From assembly GCF_009914755.1 (NCBI RefSeq), contig NC_060933.1: a DNA stretch of 64,000 bases, one strand, 5' to 3'. This document shows positions 13,434-38,367 of the stretch, in pieces. A program made the position numbers and the translations under genes. The first letter of the stretch is position 1; each line of letters starts with the position of its first letter. Source of the DNA: the human T2T-CHM13v2.0 reference genome, Homo sapiens. Below the pieces are notes generated by a model. That model was not told the origin of the DNA and did not search any database. It saw only the letters and a program-made list of their open reading frames with translations.

Positions 13434-13529
13434 TTAGTAAATTTTGCATAAGTAAATTATACCTCAGTAAATCTGGCTAAAATACAATGTAAATATGTGT
13501 ATCAACCACCATTAATTTAAAAATTCTAG

Positions 13530-13820
13530 GGCCAGGCATGATGGCTTATACCTGTAATCCTATCACTTTGGGAGGCTGAGGTGGGAGGATCCCTTGAGCC
13601 CAGGAGTTCAAGACAAGCCTGGGTAACAGGGAGAGCCTCATCTCTATAGAAAATTAAAAAATTTAATTAGCCTATCGTGGTGGCTCACACCTGTAATCCC
13701 AGATACTTGGGAGGCTTTTTTGAGGTTATAGTGAGTTATGATCCAGCTACTGTACTCCAGCCTGGTGACAGAATGACATCTTCCCTCTATAAAAATAAAA
13801 ATAAAAATAAAAATAAAATC
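13530..13820 (+). mobile_element. AluJ with right-arm deletion
   Basis: gggaggatcccttgagcccaggagttcaagac is J-type; right arm shortened. Confidence 0.85.
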
Positions 13821-15242: not shown

Positions 15243-15585
<343 letters not shown>

Positions 15586-16864
15586 CTAGACAGCTTTCTT
15601 GAGTCTTCAGGAACCAGCTCATTATAGATCCTAGCATTCTTTTGTCCCTTGCTGCCTACCTGTAAGTCACAAATCTGCTTTGTGTAACTTGTTGCATATG
15701 AGTGTATTCTGTCTCCTGCACTCAGACAAGCTGGTAAGCAGCACACAGTAAACCTAATCCACAAAATGCATCCAGCAAGCAGGGCCCCATCTAATGTAAT
15801 CATAGCTTATTTGAGAAGCAGGAGGGGTGATACTTCCTAGTACCCAGCCCTGGGGAAAGATGGCAGCCTGGGGGCATGGGGATTGAATATTTTCAGAGGA
15901 AGGAAGGGTGATAAGTGGGATTTAGGTCTGCCACTTCCCACAGATGTGAATGAGATGGCTGCATGGATCAAGGCAAACAAAAGGCAATGAGGAAATAGAG
16001 GAGCATAGGTACCTTGGTTGGGGATATTTATTTAATTACCCTGTCATTCATGGGGGCAGAGAGTGAGGGAAGTGTGTACTCAACCAGACACTAAGGCACC
16101 TGAGAGGGAAAGAAGAAAGGGGTCCTCAGATCTTCCTTGAGGCATCTGAGAAGGAATCAATACATGTGATAAAGGCCTTCACAGAAAGGGAGACTCATTA
16201 TCTAAAGGACAGATATAGAGAAAGGCCAGGCATGTTTCTTTGATGAAAGGACATTGCAAATCCAATGTATTGGGCTGAATGGCAGAGTCAGAAATGGGAC
16301 CAAGGTCTCAGGGTCCCCAAATGGAGGCCAAAGGCCTTATATTTCTGTCAAGGTAAGAGGAGAAAAGAAAGAAATTCAGACTTTTTTTTTTGATACAGGA
16401 GTCCACATAATATTTCCAGGTCCTCTTAGGGAGAAAAACTGGTGACACTGGAAGGTTTTAGAATGAATGCATTGACCAGTAGTGCTTATCAACCTGTGAT
16501 ATGGCTTTGGTCCATATTGGATGTCAGTGACCATGGTTCTCACTTGTGAGTGCATTATTGGTATTGACCCCCCGACTTCTTGTAGCACAAAAATCACCAT
16601 TGCCTGAGGGGACATACTCTTTGACAACTCAGAATTCAAGCCATAACAGTGGGGCATATCCTGCCTGCCACCTAAACTACCCAAGCCCCAATGGATTATT
16701 TAACAAAAGCAGTACTACATGGTAAGTGGAGAATAGGACATTACTTTACTAATTCAGGACTACAACAAACTATCCCTTTTAAGCAACCTGTAAGGATCCA
16801 TTGGATTCTCCTGTGGCAACCTGGGGCCCAGGACTCATAGACATGCTTACTGACAGCATGGCAT

Positions 16865-19720
16865 TGTCATGCATCAGTGCATCAGTGTGAAGAGACTACC
16901 AAACAGGTTTTTTGTGAGCAACAAGACTGTTTATTTCACCTGGGTGCAGGCAGGCTGAGTCCAAAAAGAGAGTCAGTGAAGGAAGATGGGGTGGGGCCAT
17001 TTTATAGGATTTGGGTAGGTAGTGGAAAATTACAGTCAAAGGGGGTTATTCTCTGGCAGGCAGGGGTGGGGGTCACAAGGTGCTCAGTGGGGGAGCTTCT
17101 GAGCCAGGAGAAGGAATTTCACAAAGTAATGTCATCAGTTAAGGCAGGAGCCAGCCATTTTCACTTCTTTTGATTCTTCACTTGTTTCAGGCCATCTGGA
17201 TGTACACGTGCAGGTCACAGGAGATACGATGGCTTAGCTTGGGCTCAGAGGCCTGACATTCCTGTCTTCTTATATTAATAAGAAAAATAAAACAAAATAG
17301 TGTTGAAGTGTTGGGGTGGTGAAAATTTTGGGGGGTGCTATGGAGAGATAATGGGTGATGTTTCTCAGGGCTGCTTCGAGTGGGATTAGGGGAGGCATGG
17401 GAACCTAGAGTGGGAGAGATTAAGCTGAAGGAAGATTTTGTGGTAAGGGGTGAAACTGTGGGGTTGTTAAGAGGAGCATTTGTCATATGGAATGATTGGT
17501 AATGGCCTGGATGCAGTTTTGTATGAATTGAGAAACTAAACGGAAGACACAAGGTCTGAATAAGTGAAGGAGAAAAACAGGTATTAAATGACTAAGAATT
17601 GGGAGGACCAAGGACATCCAATTAGAGAGTGCTCAAGGGGGTTCAGCATAATTACTTGTTTGGTTGGTGAGTTTTGGGGCTCTATCCTTGACAGAGTCCT
17701 CTTTTTTAAGTTTTAAGTTGGAGGCTGAGCTTGGTGAGGTGTATTTTTAAAAGACAATTTGTCCGTCCTACCATTCCTGAAGATTCAGGATGGTAAGGGC
17801 TATAAAGGTTTTACTGAATACCAAGAGCCTAAGAAACTGCTTGGGTGATTTGACTAATAAAAGCTGGTCTGTTATCAGACTGTATAGAGGAGGGAAGGCC
17901 AAACCAAAGAATTATGTCTGACAGAAGGGAAGAAATCATCATGGTGGCTTTCTCAGACCCTGCGGGAAAGGCCTCTACCCATCCAGCGAAAGTGTCTACC
18001 CAGACCAAGAGGTATTTTAGTTTCCTGACTCAGAGCATGTGAGTGAAGTCAATTTGCCAGTCCTGGGTGGGGGCAAATCCCTGAGCTTGATGTGTAGGGA
18101 AGGGAGGGGGCCTGAATAATCCCTGAGGAGTAGTAGAATAGCAGATGGAACACTGAGAAGTGATTTTTTGAGGATAGACTTCCACAATGGAAAGGAAATG
18201 AGAGGTTCTAAGAGGTGGGCTAGCAGCTTGTAACCTACATGGAAGAGGTTATGCAATGACGACAGAATAGAATGGGCCTGTGAGGCTGGAAGGAGATATT
18301 TTCCTTGGTCAAAGAACCATTTGCCTTGTGTGGGAAGAGATTGATAGGTGGAAGTCTCAGTCGGTGAGTAGGTGGGAGTGACCGATTAGAAGGAGAAAAA
18401 CTGGCCGTGAGGGACAGAAGTTGGAATGCTAGCTGCTTCTTTAGCTATTTTATCAGCATAAGTATTGCCCTGAGCAATGGGATCTGATGCCTTTTGATGG
18501 CCTTTACAGTGAATGACTCCAGCTTCCTTTGGAAGTAAAGTGGCCTTGAGAAGAGCTTTTATTAAAGAGGCATTAATGATGGAGGACCCTTGCGCAGTGA
18601 GGAAACCTCTTTCTGCCCATATAATGGTATGGTGGCGTAGGATATGAAAGGCATATTTAGAGTCAGTTTAAATATTGATGTGTAGTCCCTTTGCAAGAGT
18701 GACGCTCGAGTTAAGGCAATGAATTTGGCTTGCTGAGAGGTAGGGGAGTGGGGCAGAGCGGTAGCCTCAATGATAGATGTGGAAGATACTATAGCATAGT
18801 CTGCCTTTGCTGGTGAGTGGCAATTAGGCCTGGTGGAACTGCCATTGATAAACCAAGTGTGATCAGGGTGAGGAACAGGAAAGAAGGAAATATAGGAAAT
18901 GGAGTGAATGTCAGGTGGATCAGAGAGATACAGCCATGGGGATCAGGTGTGATATCCAGAATAATGTGGGAGGCCAGATTGAAGTCCTGGCCAGGAAAAA
19001 TGGTAATTGTGGGAGACTCAACAAAGAGTGAGTACAGCTGAAGGAGCTGGGGAGCAGAAAGTATATGCATCAGGTGTGAGGAAGAAAATAGATTTTGGAA
19101 GTTATGAGAAATGTAGAGAGTGAGTTGAGCATAGTTTGTGATTTTTAGGGCCTCTAAAAGAATTAGGGTGATGGCAACTGCTGCACAGAGACATGATGGC
19201 CAGAGCAGATCCTGAACTAACCTGTAAGACTTGTCTGGAGTTTGAATAGGTAAAATAGGAGAATTGTAAGGAGAGTTTATAGGTTTTACAAGCCCATGCT
19301 GTAGCAGGGGAGTGATAACAGGCACCAAATATCACACACGTCCATGTGAAGAGACCACCAAACAGACACTGCATGAGCAATAAGGCTGTTTATTTCACCT
19401 GGGTGCAGGCGGGCTGAGTCTGAAAAGAAAGTCAGTGAAGGGAGATAGGGGTGGGGCCGTTTTATAGGATTTGGGTAGGTAGTGGAAAAGTATAGTCAAA
19501 GAGGATTGTTCTCTGTTGGGCAGGGGCGGGGGTCACAAGGTGCTCAGTGGGGGATCTTCTGAGCCAGGAGAAGGAATTTCACAAAGTAATGTCATCAGTT
19601 AAGGCAGGAACCAGCCATTTTCACTTCTTTTGTGATTCTTCACTTGCTTCAGGCCACCTGGATGTATAAGTGCAGGTCACAGGGGATATGATGGCTTAGC
19701 TTGGGCTCAGAGGCCTGACA
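16865..19720 (-). mobile_element. Internally deleted HERV-H provirus (LTR7-type LTRs 16865-17258 and 19330-19720)
   Basis: Both LTRs begin TGTCAGGCCTCTGAGCCCAAGC on the minus strand; perfect TSD GGCAT at 16860-16864 and 19721-19725; pol fragments (NSPYNSPILP, YRLVQDL). Confidence 0.95.
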
Positions 19721-21631
19721 GGCATGGTTTACTGATAGCTCTGCCAGACGACATGCACTGGACCACCATTCAGCCAGTGGTTGGCTATCTTTTGACTGAG
19801 ACTGGACATGGGCATTCTACCCAATGGGCCAAACTAAATGCAGTGGTGATGGCCATGCAGGCTACCTCTATCGCATATCTTGCTATATTTTCAGTGACTT
19901 ATGGGCCATTGCCAAAAGCCTAGCCATCTGATCAGGACAATGGCAATGGAAGGATTGGACTGTTAGAGGATATCCATGTGAGGACAAGGACTAAGAAAAA
20001 CAGCTTGTTGTCTGAAAAAGACAAATATATGTCAATCATATGGGTGCTGAGGCAACTATAGCCACACTTGAGAGGAATTTATGCCATCCTCTTACATAGC
20101 CCATGGGATTTTACTTGGACCAAGGAATATTTTTTACTATTCAAGCAACTAGATAATGGGTACACATTAGTGAAAAAAGATGGGCTTTTTAAGTACATTG
20201 TCATCCTCAGGCCAATAGAGTTATTGAATAATGGAACTCACAAAGCAACTGAAGAAAGAACATCAAGATGTCCTGCTAGTGAGGGGGTAGCCCATCTGAC
20301 TAGGGCAATAGGGACACTAAACACTATGCACCAATGCAAAGGAAACAGCACTGCAGTGCATATTGAGGGACACTGAGCTTGGTTGGGTTGGAGGTGGATG
20401 AGAAACCCACCTGACTAGGCTGTCTGTGCCTGTAAAGTCTCAGTCTGGGTTCTCAACCATTCTTTTTCCTTTTCCCCTATAGAGTACATGTCCTGGGGAT
20501 GAATTGCAGTTCAGGGTGCCATAGTACCCCAGAGAGGCCACCCTGTCTCTAATCTGGAGTTTATACTTCCCTTGGGTACCTCCCCTATAAGGGGATTCCA
20601 CAGGGGTTGGGGACAGGACTAAGGAATGACAGACTGCTAGAATCCCTCTAATGATGCTGGATGCCTCTGATCCTTCCATTTGGGTGGATGATGTTATGAG
20701 ATATACCAACTTTGTACTGGAGTGGATGATTGAGACAGAAAGGTTTGAGTCAAGCAACAAGGGCAATGGATGTCTGCAGAAGTAGCTTGGGACTAAAACA
20801 GACAGACCGGGTTGCTATACCAACTCAGCCTAATTCTTATCCAATAGGTAGAGAACATCTGAGACCCTGGAAAGGGTGAGAGGTGGGCATTAAACTGTCA
20901 GTCTGCTTTTCCACATGGATGGGGCATTATAGGCCTGTGAGCATAATGCCTTAGTGGCCTCTTCCAAAGTGCCATGGTTACACCATGGGTAACCTGACAA
21001 AGTGCTGGATGCTCCATCCACGACCTCGTTCTCTCATTGACTAGAACGATCCTTTCATCTTGCCAGTGGTTAACTACTCCAGCACTCCTAATGCCACAGA
21101 GTACAGTAATGGACCCTAAGTCCTAGCTTACTGAGTGAGGACCTAGCACATGCCACATAGGAAGAATTCAAAGGTGCTATCTTTTAACTTAAATAACTTT
21201 GTGGAAAAATGTCATGACCACAACTAACGAATCTTTGGTGGGCAGGTGCTTTGATGCACCAGGCTCCTTTAATTACAAGGATGTGTGTTCATGATGATGA
21301 AGAGAAGAAGTATCGGAGAGTGCTAGCCCTCTGCGTAGAGGCTTTAGGATTGTATGGGGTAAAATGTATGAGGAAAACTCAGGCAACTACTACCATCAAT
21401 GAGACTTAGCTAGTGAGTGCCAATACCTTCATCCTCATAAATAATACTAGCACAGGGGGTCTGTGTGTGCCAGAGGGCTACATCTTTATCTGTGGGCAAT
21501 CTGGGGTGACTGAAATGCAGGGTGGGCAAAGTCATGCCTGGAAAACTTACAGGTCCTGCCCCATTGAGTGTGCTAGGGATGCTCCTAGAATTCACCCCCA
21601 AAATGAAGTGCTCCATTGACTCAGGAGCCTA

Positions 21632-22450
<819 letters not shown>

Positions 22451-23867
22451 TCTGGCTATGACTCAATGATGTTTCACTGAGACAGAGTCAGCCAAGGTGT
22501 TACATTGATCTGACAAGACAAACCTCCACCTCCAGATCTGGAGAGGTCAATGGGCATATGAAATACACCAGCTTTTCTAAGGGAAATATCTTGGTTGGAG
22601 CAGGAGACTGCAGGTCAACTTTCCAGGTGTCCTTGGACTGACCCAATTATCCCCTCTTTCTTGCTTGCAGTTGTCAAGAGCAACTGTAGTATATGCTGAG
22701 AATGCAATATCCTGAGACAGGGAAGAACTGCCTGAAACAGCCTAGGCCTTGTTACTCTCTCCCTTGACAGAGAATGTTCTTCAAAACTTTAGGCCATAGT
22801 TTCCCATTGGTCCTGAGGTGTGTAACCTAGGGCAAGCTGTCTTGTGGGGTCCCTCAACTGTGGTACAAGTGGGCCATGCACAATCACTCCATCCACTTCA
22901 GGCACTTCACATGCATTCCATCCACTTCAGGCAACTTTGTTGAGCCTTGGGCTACTGGCTCGTAATGGATCGGCTCACATAGGTACCTGTTGTCTCTTGC
23001 TCTTTGTCTGTAAATGATACATCTGCTTTATGTAATTTGTTGCATATGAGTGTGTTCTGTTTAACTGAACTCAGACAAGCTAGTAAATAGTACACAGTGT
23101 ACCTGCCCCACACCCAGGATGTACATGCTAAAGCTAAACAGTGTGACTGCCTGCCAAAAGGAACAGTTTAAATAGAGCTCAGAATTGTCTGCCATGATAG
23201 ACAAATGTCCAGAATATAATTACAAATCACCGATCATACAAAGAACCAAGAAAATAACAATATGAGTGAAAAAAGACAGTTAACTGACACCAACACCAAA
23301 ACGCATCAGATGTTGGAATCATCTGAATATGATTTTAAAATATCTAGCAAAAATGTTTCAACATCAAATAGAAATTATCTTAAAATATATAACAAAATCG
23401 CAAAATATTAACCAAACTTGATTTGTAAAAAAAAAACAACAAAAAAGAACAAAATGTAAATTATAAAAGCAAACAAACACGGTAACAGAAATGAAAAATG
23501 TGTTGGATGGAGTCAATAGTGCCATTGAGATGCGAGAAGGTAAAATCAGTGAATGTGAGGGCAGAATAGTAGAATTTAACCAATTTGAACAACATAAATA
23601 AAATAGACTGATACATAAAATGAACAGAGATGTAGGTATGTGTGAGGCAACAACAAAAGATCCAACATTTTTATTACGTGTACCAGAAAAAAAGTAAAAT
23701 GAGGCTGAAAGAATACTTGAAGAAATAGTGCTTCAAAAAAACCTCAAATTTGCAGAAGACACAAATGTATAGATTCAAGAAGCCTAAGATACCCTACACG
23801 GAATAAACACATTTCAAGAAATATTTTGATTAAACTTTTAAAAACTAAAGACAAAATATTTTTATTT

Positions 23868-24365
23868 GGTAGTTTAGAAACATAAATCTACCACTTTAAA
23901 ATTATAGAGGTCAGAAATCTTAAATGGTTTTCATTAGGCTAAAATCAAGGTGTCAGCAGCACCGCTTTCCTTCTGGGGACTCTAAAGGAGAATACATGTT
24001 CTTGCCTTTTCCAGCTTCTAGGGGCTGTCTTCATTTCTTGTCTCTTGTCCACTTTCCCCATTCCTTGTCTCTTGGTTCTTTCCTCCAGTACAATTAGCAG
24101 TGTAGTATCTTTAAATATTTTCTACCACACTCTTCCACATTTAAAGGATTCTTGTGATTAAATTGCCCCCCCCCAGATAATCAAGTATGATCTCTTATTT
24201 TAAGTTCCGCTGTTTAGTAAGCTTAATGTCATGTGCAACCTTAATACTTTCTTGCATTGTAACATCATATATTCTTATATTACATAGCATATCCTTCCTG
24301 ACATGGAGAATAGGACAGGGACAGTCTTGTGGGGGGTGGGGGGGGGCATTATTCTGCTTATCACA
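23868..24365 (-). mobile_element. MLT1 (MaLR) LTR, truncated at its polyadenylation site
   Basis: ggctaaaatcaaggtgtcagcag...ttgccttttccagcttctag...ggggcattattctgcttatcaca. Confidence 0.75.
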
Positions 24366-24849
24366 GTTAGCAAACAAAGATTTTGTGCCATGAAAACATG
24401 GAGGAAATACCCTTATCCTTATTTTTCTTCAGTCTTTCTCATCAAATAGATCTTTAGATCCAAAAGAGAAGACTCAACATTGCTTTTAATTAAATCTCAA
24501 GATGAACGAAGGGGCACTATGAGCCCTGGGCCCTAGTATTGGAGTAGAACTCATTCCAAAACAATAAGAAAGTTTAGGAAAGAGATTTTTAAGTTGCTCT
24601 AGATATCTTTGAGGATTATGGAGAATAGTAAAAGTTTTAGAAGACAAGAAATGGGCAGTGTACTAGTTTTTTAAAGGAAGATAGATCTCATAAACTATAG
24701 GTGAATGAGTTTGACATTACTTCTGGAAGCAATTTTAAGAAGCATGAAAACAATACTTTAAAAGCACTTAAAAGAATGCTTTGCAATCATGAAACATCAT
24801 GGGCACACTGAGAAGAAATTGTATCAGAAAAATGATATTTCTTCCTATT

Positions 24850-25827
24850 TTTTGAATCTTTATCTTGTCCTTTTATTGTTAGTTGGCATGCAATAATTGT
24901 ACATATTTATGGAAACAGTGATATTTTGATACAGGTGTACAATGCGTAATGATCAAATCAGGGTAATTAGCATTTCAAACACCTCAAACATTTATCATAC
25001 TTTTGTGTTGACAACATTCAAAATCCTCTCTTCTAGCTTTTTGAAAATATACCATAAATTATAGTTATTTCCATGCGACCAGCTATAGAGCACTACAACA
25101 GAACTTATTCCTCCAATATAGCTATAATTTTGTGTCCATTAACCAACCTCTGCTCCCACATCCTTCCCAACATCTAATAACCACAATTCTACCATTTACT
25201 TTAATGAGCTCAAATTTGTTTAGCTCCTGCATATGGGTAAGGACAGACAGTATTAATTTTTCTGAGTCTGACTTATTCCACTTAACATAATGTTCGCTAG
25301 TCTTATCCATGATTCTGCAAATGACAGAATTTCATTCTTTTTATGGCAGAATATTATTCATATATATATATATATATATGAATGTATATACAAATTTGGT
25401 ATATGTATATACCACATTTTTTATCTATCCATCCATTGATGGATATTTAGCTTAATTCCATATCTTGGTTATTGTGAAGACAGCTGCAATAAATATGGAG
25501 GTGCAGATGCCTCTTAAGTGTAATGATTTCCTTTCCTTTGGATAAACACCTAGTAGTGGGATCACTAGATCATATGGTGTCTCTATTTTTGTTTTGAGAA
25601 ACCACCATACAGTTTTTCATAATAAGTGAAATAATTTAACTTACCAACAACAGTGTATGGTAGTCTAATTTTTCATGTCTTACATTTAAATTTTTAATAC
25701 ATTTTGAGTTTATTTTTGTATAAGGTGAGTGATAGGAGTTTAGTTTCATTCTTCTGCATATGGATATCCAATTTTTCCAGAAGCATGTATTGGAGATTGT
25801 GTCCTTTCCCCAATGTAGGTTGTTGAC
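24850..25827 (-). mobile_element. L1MA 3' end (5'-truncated)
   Basis: aataattgtacatatttatgg...aatgatcaaatcagggtaattagcat is the L1MA 3' UTR reverse strand. Confidence 0.85.
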
Positions 25828-26879
25828 AAAACTAAAGACAAAGTCTTAAAAGCAGCCAGATAGAAACAGTCACCTATAGGTGAAACATCACCTATAGAGG
25901 AAAACCAATGTAAATGAAAATACGTTTTTTCATCTGAAACAATGGAGGTCAGAAACAAGTTACACAATATTTTTCAGGTAGTGAAAGAAAAGAGCTGCCA
26001 ACTCTGAATGCTACAGATGTTGTAACTATGCTTCTGGAGTAAAGGAAAATTATATTTTTTGAACTGTTTAAAAATTTGTTGTTAGCAAGCTTACCATTAA
26101 ATGTTTACTAAAACTGTTATTCAAACAAAATAAAGAAAAAAAAGGAATTTTGAACATCAAGAAAGAAGGAAGATATATTAATAGAATTAGCAGAAATATG
26201 AATACATCCAATAGATGTGTTTTCCTAGTGAGTATTATAAATCATAGTTGATGATAGAAACAAAAATTATAACTCCACTTGATACTAAAGGAAGTGATAT
26301 TTAAAAGTATAGAAGATAAAGGAAAATAAATATAAGCTGAGCTTCCTTGCTTTAATCAAAAGTGTAAAACCATTGGTATTTATATATTGTTTTATAAATC
26401 GGATATTAAATCAGGTATTAAAATATGAAGAGTAGCATAAAAAGTATATACAAATTTCCAAAGCAAAGAGTGTATATTGTAGATGTATTCAAACATTGTA
26501 AGTAAAGCAACATGAAAGCTCGAGTAGCACACAGTAAGTCCAAAAAAAAAGGAAAACTGAAAAATGAGAACAAAACAAATGAATATGTAGTAAATAATAA
26601 AATGAAATGCTTAGGTTTTAGTACATTAATAATTACATTAAATATAAGTGACATAAATACACCAATCAAAAGAGAAATTAGCTGAATAAATAAAAAAATG
26701 CAACCTTAACTATTGCTATAGTAAGAAATACACTTTAATTCAATAGTATCAGTAGGTTGCAAGTAAAATAATATAAAAATACATACCATGGAAATATTTA
26801 TCAATAAAAGGGCAAAAGTGGCTATATTAATATCTGATAATCTAGAAGTTAGATTCAAAAATCTTACAAAGAACATTAC

Positions 26880-27480
26880 TAACAACAGAGGAGGCAGTTA
26901 GAGGCTGGCTAGGCAGATAGAGAGGAAGGGTCTTGGGAGAAAGACAGCACCCATGGGAATGCACCTGCACTACCTTTGTGGTGTAGCTAGAATGTGGAAA
27001 TGTGGTTAACAACTTCCTCTTATACCAAGATGTCTCTCAGAAGGGACTGTCCCAATTATGTTTCAATAAATCAACTAAATGTCCTTAACTTGACCCAGAG
27101 CTAATTGTAATATCATTAGCATTGCAGTTTTGGTGCCCCCATGAATTTTGCTTAGGCACTTATGACTAATAATCAAGATGGAGTCACTACTGCCAAACCT
27201 AGGTATGCACAGACAGAACACTCCCAGCAGGGAATTTTACCCCTTCCATTAAGGCAGGACCCACAAAAGACTTCCTTGTTTCTGTCACATAAAGGGATCA
27301 GAACTCAGCCCCATTTCTGGCAACCCTTGTTTGGGTCCACTCTTGCTGCTGAGAGCTTTTCTGTTGCTTAATGAATGCTAATTTGCCTTACTCACTCTCT
27401 GGTATTTGTGTGCCTCATTCTCTTGGTTGTGGGACAAGATCTTGGACCTCACTAAATTAAGGAGTGAGGAGACTGCAACA
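26880..27480 (+). mobile_element. ERV1 solo LTR (subfamily unresolved)
   Basis: GC-richer 600-bp insert in L1; aatcaagatggagtc, cataaa box, gagagctttt...cttaatgaa poly-A region, ends ...gactgcaaca. Confidence 0.7.
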
Positions 27481-29533
27481 CTAATAATAAATGGATCAAT
27501 TCACAAGTAAACATAACAATTCCAAATATATATGCACCAAATAACAAAGTCTTAAACAACATGAAGAGAAAAATTATAGAACTAAAAAATAATAAATTAT
27601 AGTTGTGGGTTTTAACAGCCTTATCTCAGCAATTGATAGAATTATTGGACAAAAATTTAACAATCAGCAAGCATGTAGAAGATCTGTACAGCACAATCAA
27701 CCAACAAGATTTTATTCACACACAAACACACACACACACACACACAGACACACATATACAGATAAATATATATGTCAATTATATATATATCTCTCTCTAA
27801 ATATAGAATCAGTCCACAAAAAACAGCAGAATATACAGTTTTTCAGGAGCTCATGAAATATTAACTAAAATACTAGATGATTTCTTGCACCATAAAACAA
27901 ACGCTGATACATTTAAAAGAATTTATGTCATATAGAGTATGTTCTCTGACCATAATGGAATTAAAATAAAAGTCAGTAACAGAAAGAGAGCAGGAAAATG
28001 TTTAAATGCATTTCACTTATGCAACACAGTTCCAAATGATCTATGGATTAAATATAAAGTCTTAAATAAAAATCTAAAAATATATTTCAACAAATGAAAG
28101 AAAAATACAACATATCAAAATATAGGAAATACAGCTAAGGCTGTGGTGGGAAAGAAATTTATAGTACTAAATGCTTCATTAAAAATAAGAAAAGATCTCA
28201 AATCAATAACTTACACTTGTATCTCAAGAAACTAGAAAAAGAACAGAGTAAACTGAAAGCAGGCAGAAGAAGAAAAATAATCATCACAATAACAAAAATT
28301 CATGAAATTGAAAACAGAAAAAAATGTGAAACAAAAAGCTGGTTTATTGAAAAAATCAATCAATTGATAAACATCTATCAAAACCAACAAAAATAAATAG
28401 AGATGACACAAAACACAACAGCAAATTTTTAAAAAAAAATGCAAATGATCCAATTAGGTAATGGACAAAAGACATCAATGGACGTTTTAACAAGAAAAAT
28501 ATTCAGATGTCAAATAATCCATGAAACATGTTCAATATTATTAATCATCATGGACATGTCAAATAAAACCATAGTGAGATATTTCTACACACCTATCAAA
28601 ATGACTTTTAAAAATTGTGACAATAGCAAAAGCTATTCAGGATGTAAAAAATACGATCACTCATAAGTTGCTAGTGGAAAAGTAAAATAATAGAGCCACT
28701 CTGAAAAATAGTTGACAGTTTTTTAAAAAGACAGACATGTTATTCATTCTTTCCACATTTTTTTTTGTGTGTGTGCTGATTAACCTTCTCTACCTCCTCT
28801 CCAATGCCCCAGTATCCTTACTAGCTTCTGTGGGCACTCAGTGTACCCATAAAATTTTAAGAAAATAATTAAAAATTTTTTAAAGTAAAATAAAAACCAG
28901 ATATGCATAGACCATAGATCCCAGCAATTGCAGTTGTGGGTGTTTAATTTGGAGTGATGAAACTTGTGGTCCCACAAAAACTTGTTCACGAATGTCTACA
29001 ACAGCTTAATTTGTTACAGTTGAAAAGGTCAATAAGCCCAGGTGAATGTTTAATTTGTGGTGAATTTATACCAGAAACCATGAAATACTACTCAGTCATC
29101 AAAGGAACAAAATATTAATTAATGCAATCATTTGGATGTATTTTTAGGAAATTTTGTCGAGTGAATAAAAGTCAATTATATACATTATGTACAACAGTAC
29201 AAGTAGGCCTTGAGACCTACGGGATCATTCTGTGTTGCAGCAAGGCCCTGCCTGCCTCACCAGATGTGGTGAGCCTATCCTATCTCACTCGGAGGGGGCC
29301 AAAATCGGATCTGAAAGGGAGTCTGGAGAACACAGCAGGCATCCTGAAGCTCCACCTCCCTCGGTGGAAGTCGGCTCAAGGAGGTCCTGAGGACAGGACT
29401 CCTAGGGGTTTGGCCCTGGGACAGGACAAGACACCCGCGGCCCCCTCTCCAACGCCGCCCCAAACTGGATCCCGGATCCAGCCGCCGCCATGGCGGCAGG
29501 AAGAACCTCGCTGCCGCCGCCAGGCGGCGGCAG

Positions 29534-29601
29534 TATTTAAAGGGGACGCAGCCATACTGCCAGGAGCGGAGCGCGAGTCCGCTCAGCCAATGCGCATGCG
29601 C
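29534..29601 (-). promoter_or_regulatory. TATA-like + CCAAT + NRF1 module (monomer A)
   Basis: TATTTAAA 29534-29541, CCAAT 29587-29591, TGCGCATGCGC 29591-29601. Confidence 0.6.
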
Positions 29602-29752
29602 GAGGCGGGAGCGGTTTCTCCCGTCACAGTGGTTCCCACGGTTGTCTTAGAAACCAATCCCCGAGGCTTGGCAAAGCAGGAGCCCTCCGTGGCAGTGCTT
29701 GGGTGTCGGGGCTCTGAGGATCCAGCCTGACCTCTCCACGGGGTCGACCTGA

Positions 29753-30533
<781 letters not shown>

Positions 30534-31648
30534 AGCCACACCACGATACAGTCAGCAAGAGGAAGCCGGGAATGGGAGATGGCAACAGTCCCTGTCACTG
30601 GAACGCTGGCCTCTCTGGACAAGCCACCCTTTAGGAACCCCACCCCTTATGCCTGTGGCGGTGGCACGGTGCTGTATCCTGCCTGGGCTCTGGCCTCTAC
30701 TCTCTCCTCCCTCTGGCTCTGCCTCCCCTGTTTCTCAGGGGCCTGGATGCCTCTCGCTCTGGCCAAATGCCTTCAAAAAAGATGACTTCCCAGTCCGTCA
30801 GGGAGACACTTTCTGGAGATCCGTGTCATGATCGTTTCTCTCTCCAAACGTGTTTCTGCTTAATTGGGCAGGTATCATGAGCCGGGAGCTCTTGGCTTCC
30901 ATAGGTGTCTCAGGCAGGGAAGCTTCCTTCTTCCCCACGTTTCCCCTCATGGGTGGATGGATTGCCTAGAATGAGCGCTAGGCGACCGTGACTGGCCTTG
31001 ACTTCCAGGACAGGTGGTGTCCCATTTCCTCTGCAATTCCTGTCTCATTCTTGAGGGACATCCTCTCCTCTGCTCCTGGGTGGCCTGACTCCCTTGATCT
31101 TCTGGACGAAACGAATGTCAGGAAAACAAAGGGACTGGGCTGGGGCTGGGGCTGGGGATGGGGCTGGGGCTGGGTGCAGCCAAAGTTGCCTCAGGGCTAC
31201 CAGGGCGGTGGAGGCTTGGGGGTGGGGCGATTTTTGCCAAAACCTCTTTGCTCCTCTGGTACGCATTTGAAAACGTGGCTTGGGTCAGGCACAGCCCCCC
31301 ATCTCGACCCGCAACCCCCGAGCCCCAGGTGTTCTTCGACTTTCCTTGGCATTGATGGAAAGGTCACTCATTTCCCCCTTCCACCAGCACACGCCTGGAC
31401 ACCACCCTTTGTTTCGCCGTCGCCCCATATGCCTCTGGCGACACACCATCTGCTGTGGGGTAGGCCAGTGCCACGCGTGGTCACACGGTCTCCACGTCGG
31501 ATTCGCCCCTGTTCCTGGTGGCACGTGTCCTGTAAAGCGCGGTCGGCTTTCCGGAGCCCCTGGGCTTTTAGAAGCGGGGCAAGCCACTGATATTTCAAAG
31601 GAGGCGGGAGGCAGAGGGCTGATGGATGAGTGAATTTGCAGCTGACAC

Positions 31649-33058
31649 TAGGCCTTGAGACCTATGGGATCATTGTGTGCTGCAGCGAGGCCCTGCCGGC
31701 CTCTCCAGATGTGGTGAGCCCATCCTATCTCACTCGGAGGGGGCCAGAATCGGATCTCAACGGGAGTCCGGAGAACACAGCAGGCGTCCTGAAGCTCCCC
31801 CTCCCTCCGTGGAAGTCGGCTCAAGCAGGTCCTGAGGACAGGACCCCTGGGGGTTTGGGCTTGGGACAGGACGAGACACCCGCGGCCCCCTCTCCCACGC
31901 CGCCCCAAACAGGACCCAGGATCCAGCCGCCGCCACAGCGGCAGCAGGAGCATCGCGGCCGCCGCGGGGCGGTGGCAATATTTAAAGGGGACGCAGCCTA
32001 TCTGTCCGGAGCGGAGCGCGAGTCCGCTCAGCCAATGCGCATGCGCGAGGCGCGAGCAGTTTCTCCCATCACAGTGGTTCCCACGGTTGTCTTAGAAACC
32101 AGTCCCCGAGGCTTGGCAGAGCAGGAGCCCTCCGTGGCAGTGCTTGGGTGTCCAGGCTCTGAGGCTCCGGCCTCACCTCTCCACGGGGTCGAAGGGAACG
32201 TCTCCGGATGCCAGGAGTCGCAAAGGGCCGACCATGATGATGAAACCCCAGGCGGAGACGGGGGAAGCAGCACGGGATCCCAGCCTCAGGCCTGCACAGA
32301 CGGTGTTGGTTGGGGTGAGTCTCCCCAAAAGTCGTGCCGCCGTCCATGATCTCGAGGACGGGTCGGCCTGCGTGCCCCTGGGCTCCTCTCTCACCGGAGG
32401 GTCGTTCTCCTCCAGAGCAGAACCCCGCAGCCTCAGGGGTTGCCTGGGGGTGTGTGTTTCAATGCCTCTGCTGTATGACTCTGTGTGTGTGTGTGTGTGT
32501 GTCTGTGTGTGTGTCTCCCATTCTCTCTTCTCTCTCTGTCTCTCAGTCTCTGTGTGTTTCTTTCCCACTCTCTGTGGGTTTGTGACAGCCGAAGTTACGT
32601 CAGGGCTACCAGGTCGATGGAGGATTGGGGGTGTTGCGAATTTTGCAGAAACCTCTTTGCTCCTCCGGTAGGCATTTGAAAACGTGGCTTGGGTCAGGCA
32701 CAGGCGGCTCCCCCACCCCCCGGGTCCCAGGTGTTCTTTGATTTTCCTTGGCATTGATGGAAAGGTCACCGGTTTCCTCCTTCCACCGCCACATGCCTGG
32801 ACCCCACCCTTTGTTTCGCCGTCGCCCCTTATGCCTCCGGTGAGACACATTCACACCAACTGCTGTGGGATTGGCCAGTGCCACGCGTGGTCACATGGTC
32901 TCCCCCTCGGATTCGCCTGTTTTCCTCTTTGCAGGTGTCGTGTAAAGCGTGGTCGGCTTTCTGGAACCGCAGGGCCTTTAGAAGTGGGGCAGGCCACTGC
33001 TCTTTCAAAGGAGGAGGGAGGCAGAGGGCTGATGGATCAGTGAATTTTCAGCTGACTC
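31649..33058 (+). repeat. SST1 monomer B (1410 bp, ~1-kb internal deletion)
   Basis: Junction gggtttgtg|acagccgaagtt at 32584/32585 skips the equivalent of ~30158-31177. Confidence 0.9.
31979..32046 (-). promoter_or_regulatory. TATA-like + CCAAT + NRF1 module (monomer B)
   Basis: Same three motifs intact with the same spacing. Confidence 0.6.
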
Positions 33059-33388
33059 TAGGCCTTGAGAATTATGAGATCATTCTGTGCTGCAGCGAGG
33101 CCCTGCCGGCCTCACCAGTTTTTGTGAGCCCATCCTATCTCACTGGGAGGGGGCCAAAATCGGATCTCAACGGGAGTCCGGAGAACACAGCAGGAGTCCT
33201 GAAGCTCCCCCTCCCTCGGAGGAAGTCGGCTCAAGCAGGTCCTGAGGACAGGACCCCTGGGGGTTTGGGCCTGGGAAAGGACGAGACTCCCGCGGCCCCC
33301 TCTCCCACGCCACCCCAAACAGGACCCAGGATCCAGCCGCCGCCATGGCGGCAGCAGGAGCATCGCGGCCGCCAGGCGACGGTGGCGA

Positions 33389-33456
33389 TATTTAAAGGGG
33401 ACGTAGCCTGACTGCCAGGAGCTGAGCGCGAATCGTCCCAGCCAATGCGCATGCGC
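33389..33456 (-). promoter_or_regulatory. TATA-like + CCAAT + NRF1 module (monomer C)
   Basis: Same three motifs intact with the same spacing. Confidence 0.6.
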
Positions 33457-33505
33457 GAGGCGCTAGTGGCTTCTCCCTTCACAGTGGTTCCTTCGGTTGT
33501 CTTAG

Positions 33506-33784
<279 letters not shown>

Positions 33785-33844
33785 TGACCCTGGGCTGCTC
33801 TCTCACCCGAGGGTCGTTCTCGTCGTGAGGAGAACTCCGCAGCC

Positions 33845-33888
33845 TCAGAGATTGCCTGGTGGTGTGTGTTTCAATTCCTCTGCTGTAT

Positions 33889-33945
<57 letters not shown>

Positions 33946-34342
33946 TCCCATTCTCTCTTCTCTCTCCCTCTCTCAGTCTCTGTGTGCTTCTTTCCCTCTC
34001 TCTGTGGGTTTGTGTGTGCATGCCCGTGTGCGTGTGTGTTTTTGGCTGGAGGTGCCCTGTGTGCCACAAAGCGGTTTTTCGCATGGCGGTCTGTCTTTGT
34101 TGAGCCTCTTTCTGCGTCTCTGCCTGGGTCATGAGGCCGGTTGTCAATCGTTTTTGCTGCTGTGGATCCACTTTGGCTCTGTGAAGGCCTGGCCCACGTG
34201 AGGAGATGTGTCGGTCTCGGAGCAATTGAAGTCTCATCCCCATCCTGAGCGGCCTCTTTTCTAGCATCAAAACGAACACACTGCAGATGAGGAGAAGAAT
34301 CCCACAGGAGCTCTTTGTCCTACAGGAGAGCAGCAGACCCAT
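33845..34342 (-). pseudogene. FAM27D1: FAM27D1-like ORF (satellite-derived, doubtful coding)
   Basis: [32 protein letters not shown]...TTGLMTQAETQKEAQQRQ resembles the recalled FAM27D1 N-terminus. Confidence 0.55.
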
Positions 34343-35444
34343 GTCAGAGAAGATGCTTGAGTCTTTTCACGGCTCTTCTCTGAGAAATGAAGCCACACCA
34401 CGATACAGTCAGCAAGAGGAAGCCGGGAATGAGAGATGGCAACAATCCCTGTCCCTGGAACGCTGGCCTCCCTGGACAAGCCACCCTTTTGGAACCCCAC
34501 CCCTTATGCCCTTGGCGGTGGCATGGTGCTGTATCCTGCCTGGGCTCCGGCCTCTTCTCTGTCCTCCGTCTTACTCTGCCTCCCCTGTTTCTCAGGGGCC
34601 TGGATGCCTCTAGCTCTGGCCAAATGCCTTCAACGAAGATGGCTTCCCAGTCCGTCAGGGAGACATTTCTTCGAGATCTGTGCCGTGATTGTTTCTCTCT
34701 CCAAACCTGTTTCTGCTTGATTGGGCTGGTCTCATGACCCGGGAACTCTTGGCTTCCTTAGGTGTCTCAGGCAGGGAAGCTTCCTTCTTCTCCACGTTTC
34801 CCCTCATGGGTGGTTGGATTGCCTAGAATGAGCGCTAGGTGAACGTGACTGGCCTTGTCTTCCAGGACAGGTGGTGTCGCATTTCCTCTGCACTTCCTGT
34901 CTCATTCTTGAGGGACATCCTCTCCTCTGCTCCTGGGTGAACTGAAGCCCTTGATCATCTGGCAGAAAAGAATGTCAGGGAACCCAAGGGACTGGTCTAG
35001 GGTGGAGGGCTGGTCCTGGGGCTCGGTGCAGCCAAAGTTGTGTCAGGGCTGCCAGGGCCTTGGACGGTTTGGGATGGGGCAAATTTTGCAGAAACCTCTT
35101 TGCTCCTCTGGTAGGCATTTGAAAACGTGGCTTGGGTCAGGCACAGGCCCCCCCCCACCCCGCGTGTCCCACGTGTTTTTCAATTTTCCTTGGCATTGAT
35201 GGAAAGGTCACCCGTTTCCCCCTTCCTGGACACCACCCTTTGTTTCGCCGTCTCCCCGTATGCCTCCAGTGACACGCATTAACACCAACTGCTGTGGGAT
35301 AGGCCAGTGCCACGCGTAGTCATATGGTCTCCGCCTCGGATTTGCCCCTGTTCCTCTTTGCAGGTGTCCTGTAAAGCACTGTCGGCTCCCGGAGCCCCAG
35401 GGCTTTTAGAAGCAGGGCAGGCCACTGCTCTTTCTAAGGAGGGG

Positions 35445-36263
35445 GGCATTGAAAAACACACCCCCAAGCAATCCCTGAGGCTGTGATGTTCTGCTCTCTA
35501 TGAGAAGGACCGTCGGGTGAGAGAGCAGCCCAGGGGCATGCAGGCCGACCTGTCCTAGAGATCACTGACGGAGGCACGACTTTTGGGGAGACTCACCCCA
35601 ACCAACACCGTCCGGTCAGGCCTGAGGCTGGGATCCCGTGCTGCTTCCCCCGTCTCCGCTGGGCTTTCCTCATGGTAGTCGGCCCTTTGCGACTCCTGGC
35701 ATCTGGGGACGTTCCCGTTGACCCCAAGAAGAGGTTAGGCCGGAGCCTCAGAGCCCGGAAACCCAAGCACTGCCACGGAGGGCTCCTTCTTCGCCAAGCC
35801 TCGGGGACTGGTTTCTAAGACAACCGTGGGAACCACTGTGACTGGAGAAGCCGCTCCCGCCTCGCGCATGTGCACTGACTGAGCTAACTCGCGCTCCGCT
35901 CCTGACTGTCAGGCTGTGTCCCCTTTAAATACTGCCACCTCTGAGCGCGACAGCAGCGAGGCTCCTGCTAGCCCCGCTGCGGCGGCTAGATCCGGGGTCC
36001 AGTTTGGGGCGGCGTGGGAGAGGGGGCCGTGGGTGTCTTCTCCTGTCCCAGGGCCAAACCCCGAGGAGTCCTCACCTCAGGACCTGCTTGAGCCGACTTC
36101 CACTGAGGGAGGGGGAGCTTCAGGACGCCTGCTGTGTTCTCCGGCCTCCTGTTCAGATCCAATTTTGGCCCCCTTCGAGTGAAATAGGATGGGCTCACCA
36201 CATCTGGTGAGGCAGGCAGGGCCTCGCTGCAGCGCAGAATGATCCCATAGGTCTCAAGGCCTA
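35445..36263 (-). repeat. SST1 monomer D (inverted, first ~820 bp only)
   Basis: Reverse complement of the monomer start through cctcagg...tcaatgcc. Confidence 0.88.
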
Positions 36264-38367
36264 GTGTCAGCTGCAAATTCACTTATCCATCAGCCCTCTG
36301 CCTCCCTCCTCCTTTGAAAGAGCAGTGGCCTGCCCCGCTTGTCAAAGCCCTGGGGTTCCGGAAAGCCCACCGCGCTTTACAGGACACCTGCATAGAGGAA
36401 CAGGGGCGAATCCGAGGTGGAGACCATGTGACCACGCGTGGCACTGGCCTATCCCACAGCAGTTGGTGTTAATGTGTGTCACCGGAGGCATACGGGGTGA
36501 CGGCGAAACAAAGGGTGGTGTCCAGGCATGTGCCGGTTGAATGGGGAAACGGTTGACCTTTCCATCAATGCCAAGGAAAATCAAAGAACACCTAGGACCC
36601 GGGGGGTGGGGGTCCTGTGCCTGACCCAAGCCAAGTTTTCACATGCCTACCAGAGGAGCAAAGAGGTTTCTGCAAAATTCGCCCCACCCCCAACCCTCCA
36701 CCGCCCTGGTAGCCCTGACGCAACTTAGGCTGCACCCAGCCCCAGCCCCAGCCCCAGCCCCAGCCCCAGCCCAGTCCCTTTGGTTCCCTGACATTTGTTT
36801 CGGCCAGAAGATCAAGGGAGTCAGTCCATGCAGGAGCAGAGGAGAGGATGTCCCTCATGAATGAGACAGGAAGTGCAGAGGAAATGCGACACTACCTTTC
36901 CTGGAAGACAAGGCCAGTCATGGTCACCTAGCGCTCATTCTAGGCAATCCACCCACCCATGAGGGGAAACGTGGAGAAGAAGGAAGCTTCCCTGCCTGAG
37001 ACACGAATGGAAGCCAGGAGCTCCCAGGTCATGTGACCTGCCCAATCAAGCAGAAACACGTTTGGAGAGAGAAACAATCACGACATGGATCTCGAAGAAA
37101 TGTCTCCCTGACCGACTGGGAAGTCATCTTTGTTGAAGACATTGGGCGTCAGCGAGAGGCATTGAGGCACTTGAGAAACAGGTGAGGCAGAGCAGGAGGG
37201 AGGACAGGGCAGACGCCGGCGGCCAGGCAGGATGTATCACCATTCCACTGCCAGGGTCATAAGGGGTGGGGTTCCAAAAGGGTGGCTTGTCCAGAGAGGC
37301 CAGCATTCCAGTGACAGGGACTGTTGCCATCTCCCATTCCCGGCTTCCTCTTCCAGACCGTATTGTGGTGTGGCTTCATTTCTCAGAGAAGAGCCATGAA
37401 AAGATACAAGCATCTTCTCTGATGTGGGTCCGCTGGTCTCCTGCGGGACAAAGAGCTCCTGTGGGGCTCGTGTCCTCGTCTGCAGTGTGTTCATCTTGAT
37501 CCTAGAAAAGAGGCTGCTCAGGATGGGGATAATATTTCAATTGCTCCGGGACCGAAGAATCTCCTCACCTGGGCCAGGCCTTCACACACCCAAAGCGGAA
37601 CCGCGTCGGCGAAAGGGATTGATAACCGGTCTCATGACCCAGGCAGAGAGGCAGAAACAGGCTCACCAAAGACAGGCCGCCATGCGAGAAACAGCTTTGT
37701 GGTGCACAGGGCACATTCAGCCAAGGACACACACGCACACGGGCACACACACACAAACCGACAGAGAGAGGGAAAGAAACACACGGAGACTGAGAGACAG
37801 AGAGAGAAGAGAGAATGGGAGACACACACACATACAAACACAGACACACACACAGAGTCTTATAGCAAAGGCATTGAAAGACACACACCCAGGCAACCCC
37901 TGAGGCTGTGGGGTTCTGCTTTCGACGAGAACGACCCTTCGGTGAGAGAGCACCCCAGGGGCACGCAGGCCGTCCTGTCCTCGAGATCACCGTGTCACGA
38001 CTTTTGGGGAGACTCACCCCCACCAACACCGTCCAGAGAGGCCTGAGGGAGGGATTCCATGCTGCCTTCTCCGGACTCTGCGTCGGGTTTCCTCACCCTG
38101 TTTGGCCCTTTGTGACTCTTGGCATCCAGAGACTTTCCCCTCGACCCAGTGGAGTCGTCAGGCCAGAGCCTCAGAGCCTTGACACCCAAGCACTGCCACG
38201 GAAGTCTCCCCCTTTGCCAAGCCTCGGGGACTGGTTTCTAAGACAACCGTGGGAACCACTGTGAGGGGAGAAACCGCTTGTGCTTCGCGCATGAGCATTG
38301 GCTGGGCCGACTCGTTCTCCCTTCCTGGCAGTCAGGCTGCGTCCCCTTCAAAGAACGCCACCGCTGA
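36264..38367 (-). repeat. SST1 monomer E (inverted, lacking the first ~320 bp)
   Basis: Reverse complement of monomer A; ends at gtccccttcaaagaacgccaccgctg. Confidence 0.88.
37523..37903 (+). ncRNA. FAM27E: FAM27E-like ORF/lncRNA in inverted monomer E
   Basis: MGIIFQLLRDRRISSPGPGLHTPKAEPRRRKGL...QAERQKQAHQRQAAMRETALW resembles the recalled FAM27E2/E3. Confidence 0.7.

What the first reader, a model, noticed from the sequence alone, without database searches (positions are those of the whole stretch)
31649..33058. A single 1.41-kb SST1 monomer sitting between 2.4-kb monomers
Seen: monomer B is 1410 bp because of a clean ~1-kb deletion with GTG microhomology (junction 32584/32585), and the NotI sites at 31955 and 33365 are exactly 1410 bp apart. 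Known: SST1 occurs as ~2.4-kb and ~1.4-kb (NBL2) monomers, and the 1.4-kb arrays on acrocentric short arms are linked to Robertsonian fusion sites. Inference: this mixed array may preserve the founding deletion of the 1.4-kb class, or record sequence exchange with acrocentric arrays.
Basis: partly seen in the sequence, partly recalled or inferred. Interest (0 to 1): 0.8.

Follow-up and report, generated by a model that had tools for sequence, protein, structure and literature searches.

The report
Lone NBL2-type SST1 unit on chr9
A single 1.4-kb satellite unit near the chromosome 9 centromere carries the same internal deletion as the large repeat arrays on chromosomes 13, 14 and 21 where Robertsonian fusions occur, and looks like an old, never-amplified relative of them, which published work already hints at.

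Summary
Monomer B (31649-33058, 1410 bp) lacks 1019 bp present in its neighbours A and C. The NotI sites are 1410 bp apart.

All 30 complete chr13/14/21 monomers I fetched have the same breakpoints (A-coordinates 954|1974). They also share the junction letters, including one extra base. B falls in a 100/100 clade with them but outside their own crown clade. It carries 14 of 30 crown-diagnostic bases. An AU test rejects grouping B with A and C (p = 7e-6).

The locus is paralogous to the acrocentric array flank. At least 18.8 kb upstream of A matches the flank of the chr13/14/21 arrays at about 97.5%. B-to-array divergence scales with flank divergence.

The same A-B-C-inverted D/E cluster recurs at three other chr9 sites. 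Best reading: B is a single-copy stem relic of the SST1-sf1/NBL2 progenitor locus on ancestrally acrocentric chr9. Whether it never expanded or collapsed from an array is unresolved without ape genomes.

[quoted passage not shown] Interest is moderate.

The parts
10377..26189 (.). Upstream flank shared with the flank of the acrocentric SST1-sf1 arrays (segmental duplication). The lower limit is set by what I could fetch.
   Evidence: Window 10377-25410 aligns as one HSP at 97.4% to chr13:12,442,000-12,456,999. Window 20384-26189 aligns at 97.6-97.8% to the chr13, chr14 and chr21 array flanks.
26190..28003 (.). A 1814-bp AT-rich stretch present in the chr9 copies but absent from the acrocentric flank.
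   Evidence: The chr13/14/21 alignments jump from 26189 to 28004 with no gap on their side. The chr9 paralogs align straight through. GC is 0.324.
28004..29203 (.). Immediate upstream flank of the array, also shared with the acrocentric arrays.
   Evidence: 96.5-96.6% BLAST identity, 2.77% substitutions against chr13/14/21. 0.50-0.84% against the chr9 paralogs.
29204..31648 (+). Monomer A, full length (2445 bp).
   Evidence: It clusters with its positional copies at chr9:41.64 and 79.50 Mb (100/100).
31649..33058 (+). Monomer B, 1410 bp, SST1-sf1/NBL2-type (central 1019 bp missing).
32576..32590 (+). Deletion junction: ...GGGTTTGTG, then one extra base (32585), then CAGCC...
   Evidence: A 76-nt junction word finds only chr13, chr14, chr21 and chr9 in the whole genome.
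32252..32264 (-). Match to the PRDM9 13-mer CCNCCNTNNCCNC at monomer position 604.
   Evidence: It is also in A and C, and in 10 of 30 sampled acrocentric monomers, so it is not specific to B.
31955..31962 (.). NotI site at position 307 of B.
   Evidence: The same position carries NotI in 25 of 30 sampled acrocentric monomers.
33365..33372 (.). NotI site at position 307 of C.
33059..35446 (+). Monomer C, full-length type, cut at A-coordinate 2405 by the inversion junction.
   Evidence: The junction is shared by five other loci.
35445..36263 (-). Monomer D, inverted, A-coordinates 1-818.
36264..38364 (-). Monomer E, inverted, A-coordinates 321-2445.

Best explanation
B is an SST1 subfamily-1 (NBL2-type) unit that shares its deletion by descent with the 1.4-kb units of the chr13/14/21 arrays.

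The deletion removed about 1.02 kb. It runs from a (TG)n tract to the end of a (GGGGCT)n tract, joined at a GTG microhomology with one extra base. It arose once.

B sits as a single copy between two full-length units. They form a 9.2-kb, partly inverted SST1 cluster inside a segmental duplication. The same duplication supplies the flank of the acrocentric arrays.

After the chr9 and acrocentric copies separated, the acrocentric copy amplified the short unit into arrays that evolve in concert. The chr9 copy kept one short unit. It stopped exchanging and was later copied to other chr9 pericentromeric sites.

Shown: the same junction, the clade membership, the stem position, the shared flank and the four chr9 copies. 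Inferred: that the single copy is the unexpanded ancestral state rather than a collapsed array, and the timing.
For: Same breakpoints:
- 30 of 30 complete acrocentric monomers show them.
- The junction letters are identical, including the extra base.
- The 76-nt junction word gives 62 genome matches: 59 on chr13/14/21, 3 on chr9, and 0 for the reversed control.

Phylogeny (52 rows, 1408 columns, chr19 outgroup):
- B and its three chr9 copies lie with 19 of the 20 acrocentric monomers in the tree in a 100/100 clade. The twentieth, the chr13 edge monomer, branches just outside it.
- Those 19 acrocentric monomers form their own 100/100 crown that excludes B.
- The AU test rejects a B+A+C clade (p = 7.4e-6).

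Stem position:
- Of 30 crown-diagnostic columns, B has 14 in the sf1 state, 15 ancestral and 1 other.
- The edge monomers of the chr13, chr14 and chr21 arrays keep the chr9-like state next to the junction.

Shared flank:
- At least 18.8 kb upstream of A matches the acrocentric array flanks at about 97.4-97.8%.
- The first about 250 nt of the acrocentric edge monomer are A-like.

Proportional divergence:
- Flank: 0.50-0.84% among the chr9 copies against 1.96-2.77% to the acrocentrics.
- SST1 units: 2.6-2.9% against 7.5-9.9%.
- The ratio is about 3.3-fold in both comparisons.

One short unit per locus:
- Both old chr9 lineages (48.14 family and 48.36) have exactly one short unit at the same position, with the same inversion junction.

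Literature (passages read):
- sf1 has a central gap (PMC12657243).
- sf1 occurs on acrocentric or ancestrally acrocentric chromosomes, and HSA9 is ancestrally acrocentric (10.64898/2025.12.22.696095).
Against: - No ape genome could be searched, so the direction of events (never expanded or collapsed) is not shown.
- Gorilla HSA9 carries large 1.4-kb arrays according to the preprint. That makes a former array on ancestral 9p plausible.
- The monomers are mosaics. B's left part is nearest to A/C types and its right part to the m2/E types. The A and C positions are occupied by different monomer types at 48.14 and 48.36. Conversion has therefore reshuffled these clusters, and positional orthology is imperfect.
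- The three-way split between the 48.14 family, 48.36 and the crown is an unresolved polytomy.
Confidence: 0.72

Rival explanations
1. Collapsed array. The chr9 loci once held longer sf1 arrays, as gorilla HSA9 does now, and unequal crossing-over reduced them to one unit. A and C would be the divergent array-edge units.
For: - The acrocentric arrays also have non-standard edge units. One edge has an A-like start. At the other end sits a terminal unit that keeps the centre (A-coordinates 1-1906).
- Unequal crossing-over does act here. chr9:43.19 has an A(1-954)+C(955-2405) recombinant that has lost B.
- The gorilla HSA9/18 arrays are described in the preprint.
Against: Two chr9 lineages about as old as the split from the acrocentric crown (B against the 48.36 copy about 7-8%) both have exactly one short unit at the same place. 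The collapse would therefore have to predate their split or to have happened twice.
Confidence: 0.2
2. Import. An sf1 unit was copied from an acrocentric array into a pre-existing full-length chr9 array by ectopic exchange or gene conversion.
For: - Interchromosomal exchange of SST1 is documented for the acrocentrics (PMC12657243).
- The chr9 monomers are mosaics.
Against: - The flank outside the array is shared as well, over at least 18.8 kb.
- B lacks about half of the crown-diagnostic bases.
- B-to-crown divergence is what the flank divergence predicts.
- The unit sits at the same position in four loci.
Confidence: 0.06
3. Independent local deletion that resembles the acrocentric one by chance, or an assembly artefact.
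For: - Both breakpoints lie in simple-sequence tracts that could break repeatedly.
- An independent deletion does exist in the chr17 arrays (777-2034).
Against: - The junction is identical to the base, including the extra base.
- B shares derived substitutions with sf1 on both sides.
- The AU test rejects a local origin.
- The same structure is assembled four times on chr9.
Confidence: 0.02

Closest known systems
SST1 subfamily 1 (NBL2) arrays on chr13, chr14 and chr21, the Robertsonian breakpoint arrays (PMC12657243; 10.1101/2022.08.15.504037)
   Same: - Same 954|1974 deletion and junction letters.
- About 1.41-kb length.
- Similar CpG load: 80 CpG in B against 77-83 in eight of the nine array units checked (71 in the chr13 edge unit).
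- NotI at position 307.
- PRDM9 13-mer near position 600 in some units.
- Same upstream flank.
   Different: - B is a single unit, not an array.
- It is 7.5-9.9% diverged from the array units, which are reported as about 99% alike.
- It has only 14 of 30 crown-diagnostic bases.
- It is flanked by full-length units and lies on chr9.
[quoted passage not shown] 2018, PMC6009586, passages read)
   Same: This is very probably the same set of chr9 loci, described from hg38 by similarity to an NBL2 consensus.
   Different: The passages I read give no junction, flank or tree analysis. They report no RNA from chr9 copies. I did not see their Figure 1C or their supplements.
SST1 type 2L / 2S partial monomers beside the acrocentric arrays (PMC12657243; KaryoScope preprint)
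   Same: These are non-deleted units at the edge of an sf1 array. The chr13 terminal unit I found (A-coordinates 1-1906, 1883 bp) fits the reported 0.8-1.9 kb size. Its centre is closest to chr9 monomer A (92.7-95.6%).
   Different: I equate my chr13 terminal unit with 'type 2L' from size and place only. On chr9 the flanking units are complete or nearly so.
chr17 pericentromeric SST1 arrays of about 1.16-kb units
   Same: These are also short units made by an internal deletion of a 2.4-kb unit and then amplified.
   Different: The breakpoints differ (776|2035) and the units form a separate clade. It is an independent event.

Membership tests
SST1 subfamily 1 (NBL2) | About 1.0-kb central deletion relative to other SST1 units ('central gap') | tested here: met
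   The breakpoints are the same as in 30 of 30 complete chr13/14/21 monomers. The junction letters are the same. The genome-wide junction word is limited to chr13/14/21 and chr9.
SST1 subfamily 1 (NBL2) | Unit length about 1.4 kb | tested here: met
   B is 1410 bp. The acrocentric units fetched are 1394-1422 bp.
SST1 subfamily 1 (NBL2) | Groups with chr13/14/21 monomers in a monomer phylogeny | tested here: met
   B is in a 100/100 clade with them but outside their 100/100 crown. The AU test rejects the alternative. The tree lacks chr4 and chrY monomers.
SST1 subfamily 1 (NBL2) | Very high identity among units (about 99% reported), i.e. taking part in concerted evolution with the acrocentric arrays | tested here: not met
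   B is 90.1-92.5% identical to the 20 acrocentric monomers kept in the tree alignment. It lacks 15 of 30 crown-diagnostic bases.
SST1 subfamily 1 (NBL2) | Tandem array of short units | tested here: not met
   There is one short unit between full-length units in the window and in the three other chr9 loci.
SST1 subfamily 1 (NBL2) | Predicted PRDM9 motif CCNCCNTNNCCNC in the unit | tested here: inconclusive
   The motif is present in B at position 604. It is also in A and C, and in only 10 of 30 sampled acrocentric units. I could not see which site the paper's figure marks.
SST1 subfamily 1 (NBL2) | Location on an acrocentric or ancestrally acrocentric chromosome | not testable with these tools
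   That HSA9 is ancestrally acrocentric is taken from the preprint. What I tested is that the flank is paralogous to the acrocentric array flank.
SST1 subfamily 2 (MER22) for neighbours A and C | Full-length (about 2.4 kb) unit grouping with autosomal arrays such as chr4, chr17 and chr19 | tested here: inconclusive
   A and C are full-length in type. In the tree they join the sf1 clade and other chr9/chr20 units in a 100/99 group that excludes chr17, chr7 and chr19. No published consensus was available for comparison.

The most novel reading that the evidence does not exclude
The chr9 mixed clusters preserve the birth configuration of the NBL2/sf1 unit: one short unit made by a single illegitimate join between a (TG)n tract and a (GGGGCT)n tract, still lying beside its full-length relatives.

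At chr9:48.36 Mb the full-length unit next to the short one carries 13 of the 30 sf1-diagnostic bases, on both sides of the deletion, and keeps the centre. It would be a surviving full-length sister of the progenitor.

The 13/14/21 Robertsonian-hotspot arrays would then be an amplification of this one unit inside a copy of the same duplication.
Probability: 0.35. Interest if true: 0.6.

Novelty: new member of a known kind. Interest (0 to 1): 0.42.

Why it matters
The 1.4-kb SST1 subfamily is the recombination substrate of the common human Robertsonian translocations.

Guarracino et al. described its deletion as shared only by the chr13/14/21 arrays. Here the same deletion is shown in four single units on chr9, with the same flank as the acrocentric arrays and an older sequence state.

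This gives a concrete locus for testing how and when the hotspot subfamily arose, and whether it was amplified from one unit. The test would follow this flank through the ape T2T genomes.

The locus has no evident function of its own. The gain is evolutionary bookkeeping, and part of it is already published.

Tried and rejected
- TRF cannot see the 1.4-2.4 kb period because its longest period is 500. It found only small minisatellites.
- A whole-genome DNA search with B scored only 1 of 672 first-look candidates, the window itself. I switched to pattern searches.
It covered chr12, chr17 at 22.96 and 23.10 Mb, chr20 at 25.86-26.07 Mb, more of chr19, and further flanks. Those loci and chr4 and chrY are not in the tree.
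- The supplements of PMC12657243 gave only one small readable PDF, which I did not read. bioRxiv supplements are closed. Published monomer tables that may already classify these chr9 units could not be checked.
- The PRDM9 motif turned out not to discriminate sf1 in my sample.
- The NotI site at position 307 is not a stable marker of the chr9 short units. It is absent from the three B paralogs.
- I considered recent gene conversion between the short unit and its full-length neighbour at 48.36. It is not supported, because no near-identical tract exists (segment identities 90.7-95.6%). Ancient conversion is not excluded.
- The 1814-bp chr9-only stretch at 26190-28003 was inspected for poly-A runs and open frames, without a clear result.

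Full report
**What is in the window**

A GC-rich block starts at about 29.2 kb (GC 0.29 rising to 0.57). Direct repeats start at 29204, 31649 and 33059, spaced 2445 and 1410 bp apart.

I used the first unit (A, 29204-31648) as a ruler and ran BLAST against the window:
- B is 31649-33058. A 1-954 matches at 90.8% and A 1974-2443 at 84.1%.
- C is 33059-35446 and covers A 1-2405.
- Two units follow on the minus strand: D (35445-36263, A 1-818) and E (36264-38364, A 321-2445).

The cluster is therefore 9.2 kb: three direct units and 1.2 inverted units. B lacks 1019 bp (A 955-1973), seen as a single 1018-column gap in MAFFT.

NotI sites lie at 31955 and 33365, at position 307 of B and of C. They are 1410 bp apart. 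Three sites in the window compare with 0.11 expected by chance. A, B and C differ from one another by about 10%, so the cluster is old.

**Same deletion as the acrocentric arrays**

The window's assembly is held as G000, and the window is C9:48112001-48176000. A conserved 26-mer with up to 3 mismatches has 203 matches genome-wide and 0 for the reversed control. Only 100 of them were listed. They include:
- runs with about 1.41-kb (or doubled) spacing on chr13 (12.30-12.44 Mb), chr14 (6.96-6.99 Mb) and chr21 (9.37-9.45 Mb);
- several chr9 loci whose spacings copy the window's.

I fetched 20 loci. Results:
- All 30 complete chr13/14/21 monomers align to A as 1-953/954 plus 1974/1980-2445.
- A 120-nt probe across B's junction aligns without gaps to 34 acrocentric monomers at 91.6-96.7%. 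One of these is cut by the end of the locus. It also aligns to one unit at each of chr9:41.64, 48.36 and 79.50 Mb.
- The junction reads ...GGGTTTGTG, one extra base, CAGCCGAAG... in all of them. The extra base is C everywhere except in the window's B, where it is A.
- In every full-length unit the left side reads ...TTTGTG followed by a (TG)n tract. The deleted segment ends ...(GGGGCT)n GGGTG. The join is therefore a GTG microhomology plus one base, between two simple-sequence tracts.
- A 76-nt junction word with up to 3 mismatches finds 62 places, all listed: 59 on chr13/14/21 and 3 on chr9. The reversed control finds 0.
- The more diverged chr9:48.36 junction word is unique.
- The chr17 arrays have a different deletion (776|2035, 1.16-kb units).

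**Phylogeny**

From 66 usable monomers I thinned the acrocentric and chr17 rows to 54. I then dropped two very divergent partial units, leaving 52 rows and 1408 columns (those present in B). The tree was IQ-TREE GTR+F+G4 with a chr19 outgroup.
- B and its three chr9 counterparts, 19 acrocentric monomers and one full-length unit (chr9:48.36 'm4') form a clade with 100/100 support.
- The 19 acrocentric monomers form their own 100/100 crown.
- The chr9 units lie outside that crown in an unresolved three-way split.
- A and C group with their own positional copies.
- Holding B with A and C lowers the log-likelihood by 104.3 (AU p = 7.4e-6).

Identity over B's columns:

| Comparison | Identity |
|---|---|
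| B vs acrocentric units | 90.1-92.5% |
| B vs A | 90.3% |
| B vs C | 89.9% |
| A or C vs acrocentric units | about 87% |

I found 30 columns where at least 90% of crown units share a base that at most one other full-length unit has. In these, B has 14 in the sf1 state, 15 ancestral and 1 other. The other chr9 short units score 15-16.

The edge units of the chr13, chr14 and chr21 arrays keep the chr9-like state beside the junction. B is thus a stem member of the subfamily.

**The locus is paralogous to the acrocentric array flank**

- Window 20384-26189 aligns at 97.6-97.8% to the sequence just outside the chr13, chr14 and chr21 arrays. The chr14 copy is in opposite orientation.
- Window 28004-30157 (flank plus the first 954 bp of A) aligns at 93.5-93.6%.
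- With 10 kb more of chr13, the match runs as one HSP from window 25410 back to 10377 at 97.4%, which is the limit of what I fetched.
- Window 26190-28003 is absent from the acrocentric copies.

The acrocentric edge unit is A-like in its first about 250 nt and sf1-like after that. At the far end of the chr13 array sits a terminal unit covering A 1-1906. It keeps the centre, which is closest to A (92.7-95.6%).

Divergence scales in the same way for flank and units:

| Comparison | Flank substitutions | SST1 units |
|---|---|---|
| Window vs chr9 paralogs | 0.50-0.84% | 2.6-2.9% |
| Window vs acrocentric copies | 1.96-2.77% | 7.5-9.9% |

The units are about 3.3-fold faster than the flank in both comparisons. 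So B and the arrays appear to have parted when their flanks did (inference).

From recalled genome-wide divergences, 2-2.8% lies between the human-gorilla and human-orangutan values. That fits the published statement that sf1 is absent from orangutans.

**Paralogs**

- chr9:41.64 and 79.50 Mb repeat the whole A-B-C-D-E cluster and its flanks at about 97%.
- chr9:48.36 Mb has the same B, C(1-2405), D and E(321) layout and the same inversion junction (91.5%). It is about 7-8% diverged and abuts a tandem repeat with a ladder of about 170 bp. I infer this is alpha-satellite-like.
- chr9:43.19 Mb has a single unit that is A over 1-954 (98%) and C over 955-2405 (98-99%). It is an unequal A x C exchange that removed B. 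The switch lies at the same (TG)n tract as the deletion's left breakpoint.
- chr20:30.51 Mb shares the inversion junction but is truncated before the B position.

Both old chr9 lineages have exactly one short unit. For this reason I favour 'never expanded' over 'collapsed'.

**A possible full-length sister**

At chr9:48.36 Mb the full-length unit next to the short one has these properties:
- It is B-like in its left part (92.4-96.8% to B).
- It carries 13 of the 30 sf1-diagnostic bases, on both sides of the deletion.
- It keeps a centre most like its other neighbour (94.0-96.4% over 1201-1973).
- It has no near-identical tract with the short unit, so recent conversion is unlikely.

It may descend from the undeleted progenitor, or it may be an old conversion product.

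**Other features of B**

B's CpG load (80; observed/expected 0.61) equals that of eight of the nine acrocentric array units I checked (77-83); the chr13 edge unit has 71.

The PRDM9 13-mer is present near position 600. It is also in A and C, and in only 10 of 30 acrocentric units.

NotI at position 307 is present in 25 of 30 acrocentric units but not in the three B paralogs.

**Literature**

I read passages only, not whole texts, figures or supplements.
- Guarracino et al. [quoted passage not shown]
- de Lima et al. (PMC12657243) define sf1/NBL2 with a central gap, 'primarily' on acrocentrics. They also describe type 2L/2S partial units beside the arrays.
- Dumbovic et al. [quoted passage not shown] - The KaryoScope preprint notes chr9-specific k-mers inside the arrays.
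- My three searches found no paper describing the shared flank, the junction identity on chr9 or a full-length sister. Closed supplements may hold monomer tables that do.

**Verdict**

The feature is a stem-lineage, single-copy member of a known subfamily, in a paralog of the acrocentric pseudo-homologous region. It is largely anticipated in print. The added details are the exact junction, the shared flank, the proportional divergence and a candidate full-length sister. These make the origin of the Robertsonian-hotspot subfamily testable in ape genomes.

Noticed in passing
L014 (chr9:43.19 Mb) 3886-6282; window 29204-35446: One paralog has a single A(1-954)+C(955-2405) recombinant unit and no B. 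The switch point falls in the same (TG)n tract as the left breakpoint of the sf1 deletion, which suggests that the tract is a recurrent exchange site.
   Followed up: partly
L025+L004 (chr13:12,301,351-12,303,233): The last unit of the chr13 sf1 array keeps the central segment (A-coordinates 1-1906). Its centre is closest to chr9 monomer A. It probably corresponds to the published 'type 2L' partial monomer, judged by size and place only.
   Followed up: partly
L008 4665-7057 (chr9:48.36 Mb, unit m4): A full-length unit that clusters inside the sf1 clade and carries 13 of 30 sf1-diagnostic bases on both sides of the deletion. It is either a candidate undeleted sister of the sf1 progenitor or an old conversion product.
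   Followed up: partly
L019, L020 (chr17:21.63 and 22.68 Mb): Arrays of 1.16-kb SST1 units made by a different internal deletion (A-coordinates 777-2034). This is an independent case of a shortened unit being amplified.
   Followed up: partly
window 26190-28003: A 1814-bp AT-rich stretch (GC 0.32) present in the chr9 copies but missing from the otherwise colinear chr13/14/21 flank. I did not determine whether it is an insertion or a deletion.
   Followed up: partly
window 44677-44870: A perfect 18-bp G-rich tandem repeat (10.8 copies, 100% matches) just after the third NotI site (44635). It lies inside the span of the predicted lncRNA LOC107987069.
   Followed up: no
window 58953-59784: A 52-bp (or 103-bp) C-rich minisatellite of 16 copies at about 80% matches. 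It coincides with a strong negative GC skew.
   Followed up: no
window 29620-30817: According to the hub's annotation, both exons of the predicted lncRNA LOC105379444 lie inside SST1 monomer A. The second exon (30408-30817) lies in the central segment that B lacks.
   Followed up: no
L009 (chr9:48,364,970 onward), L017, L021, L022: The chr9:48.36 cluster abuts a tandem repeat with an alignment ladder of about 170 bp. The chr20:30.51, chr7:58.01 and chr1:126.8 Mb SST1 loci share this repeat. Each of these except chr1 starts with the same partial unit (A-coordinates 1391-2445). This resembles the published alpha-satellite plus SST1 duplication blocks.
   Followed up: partly
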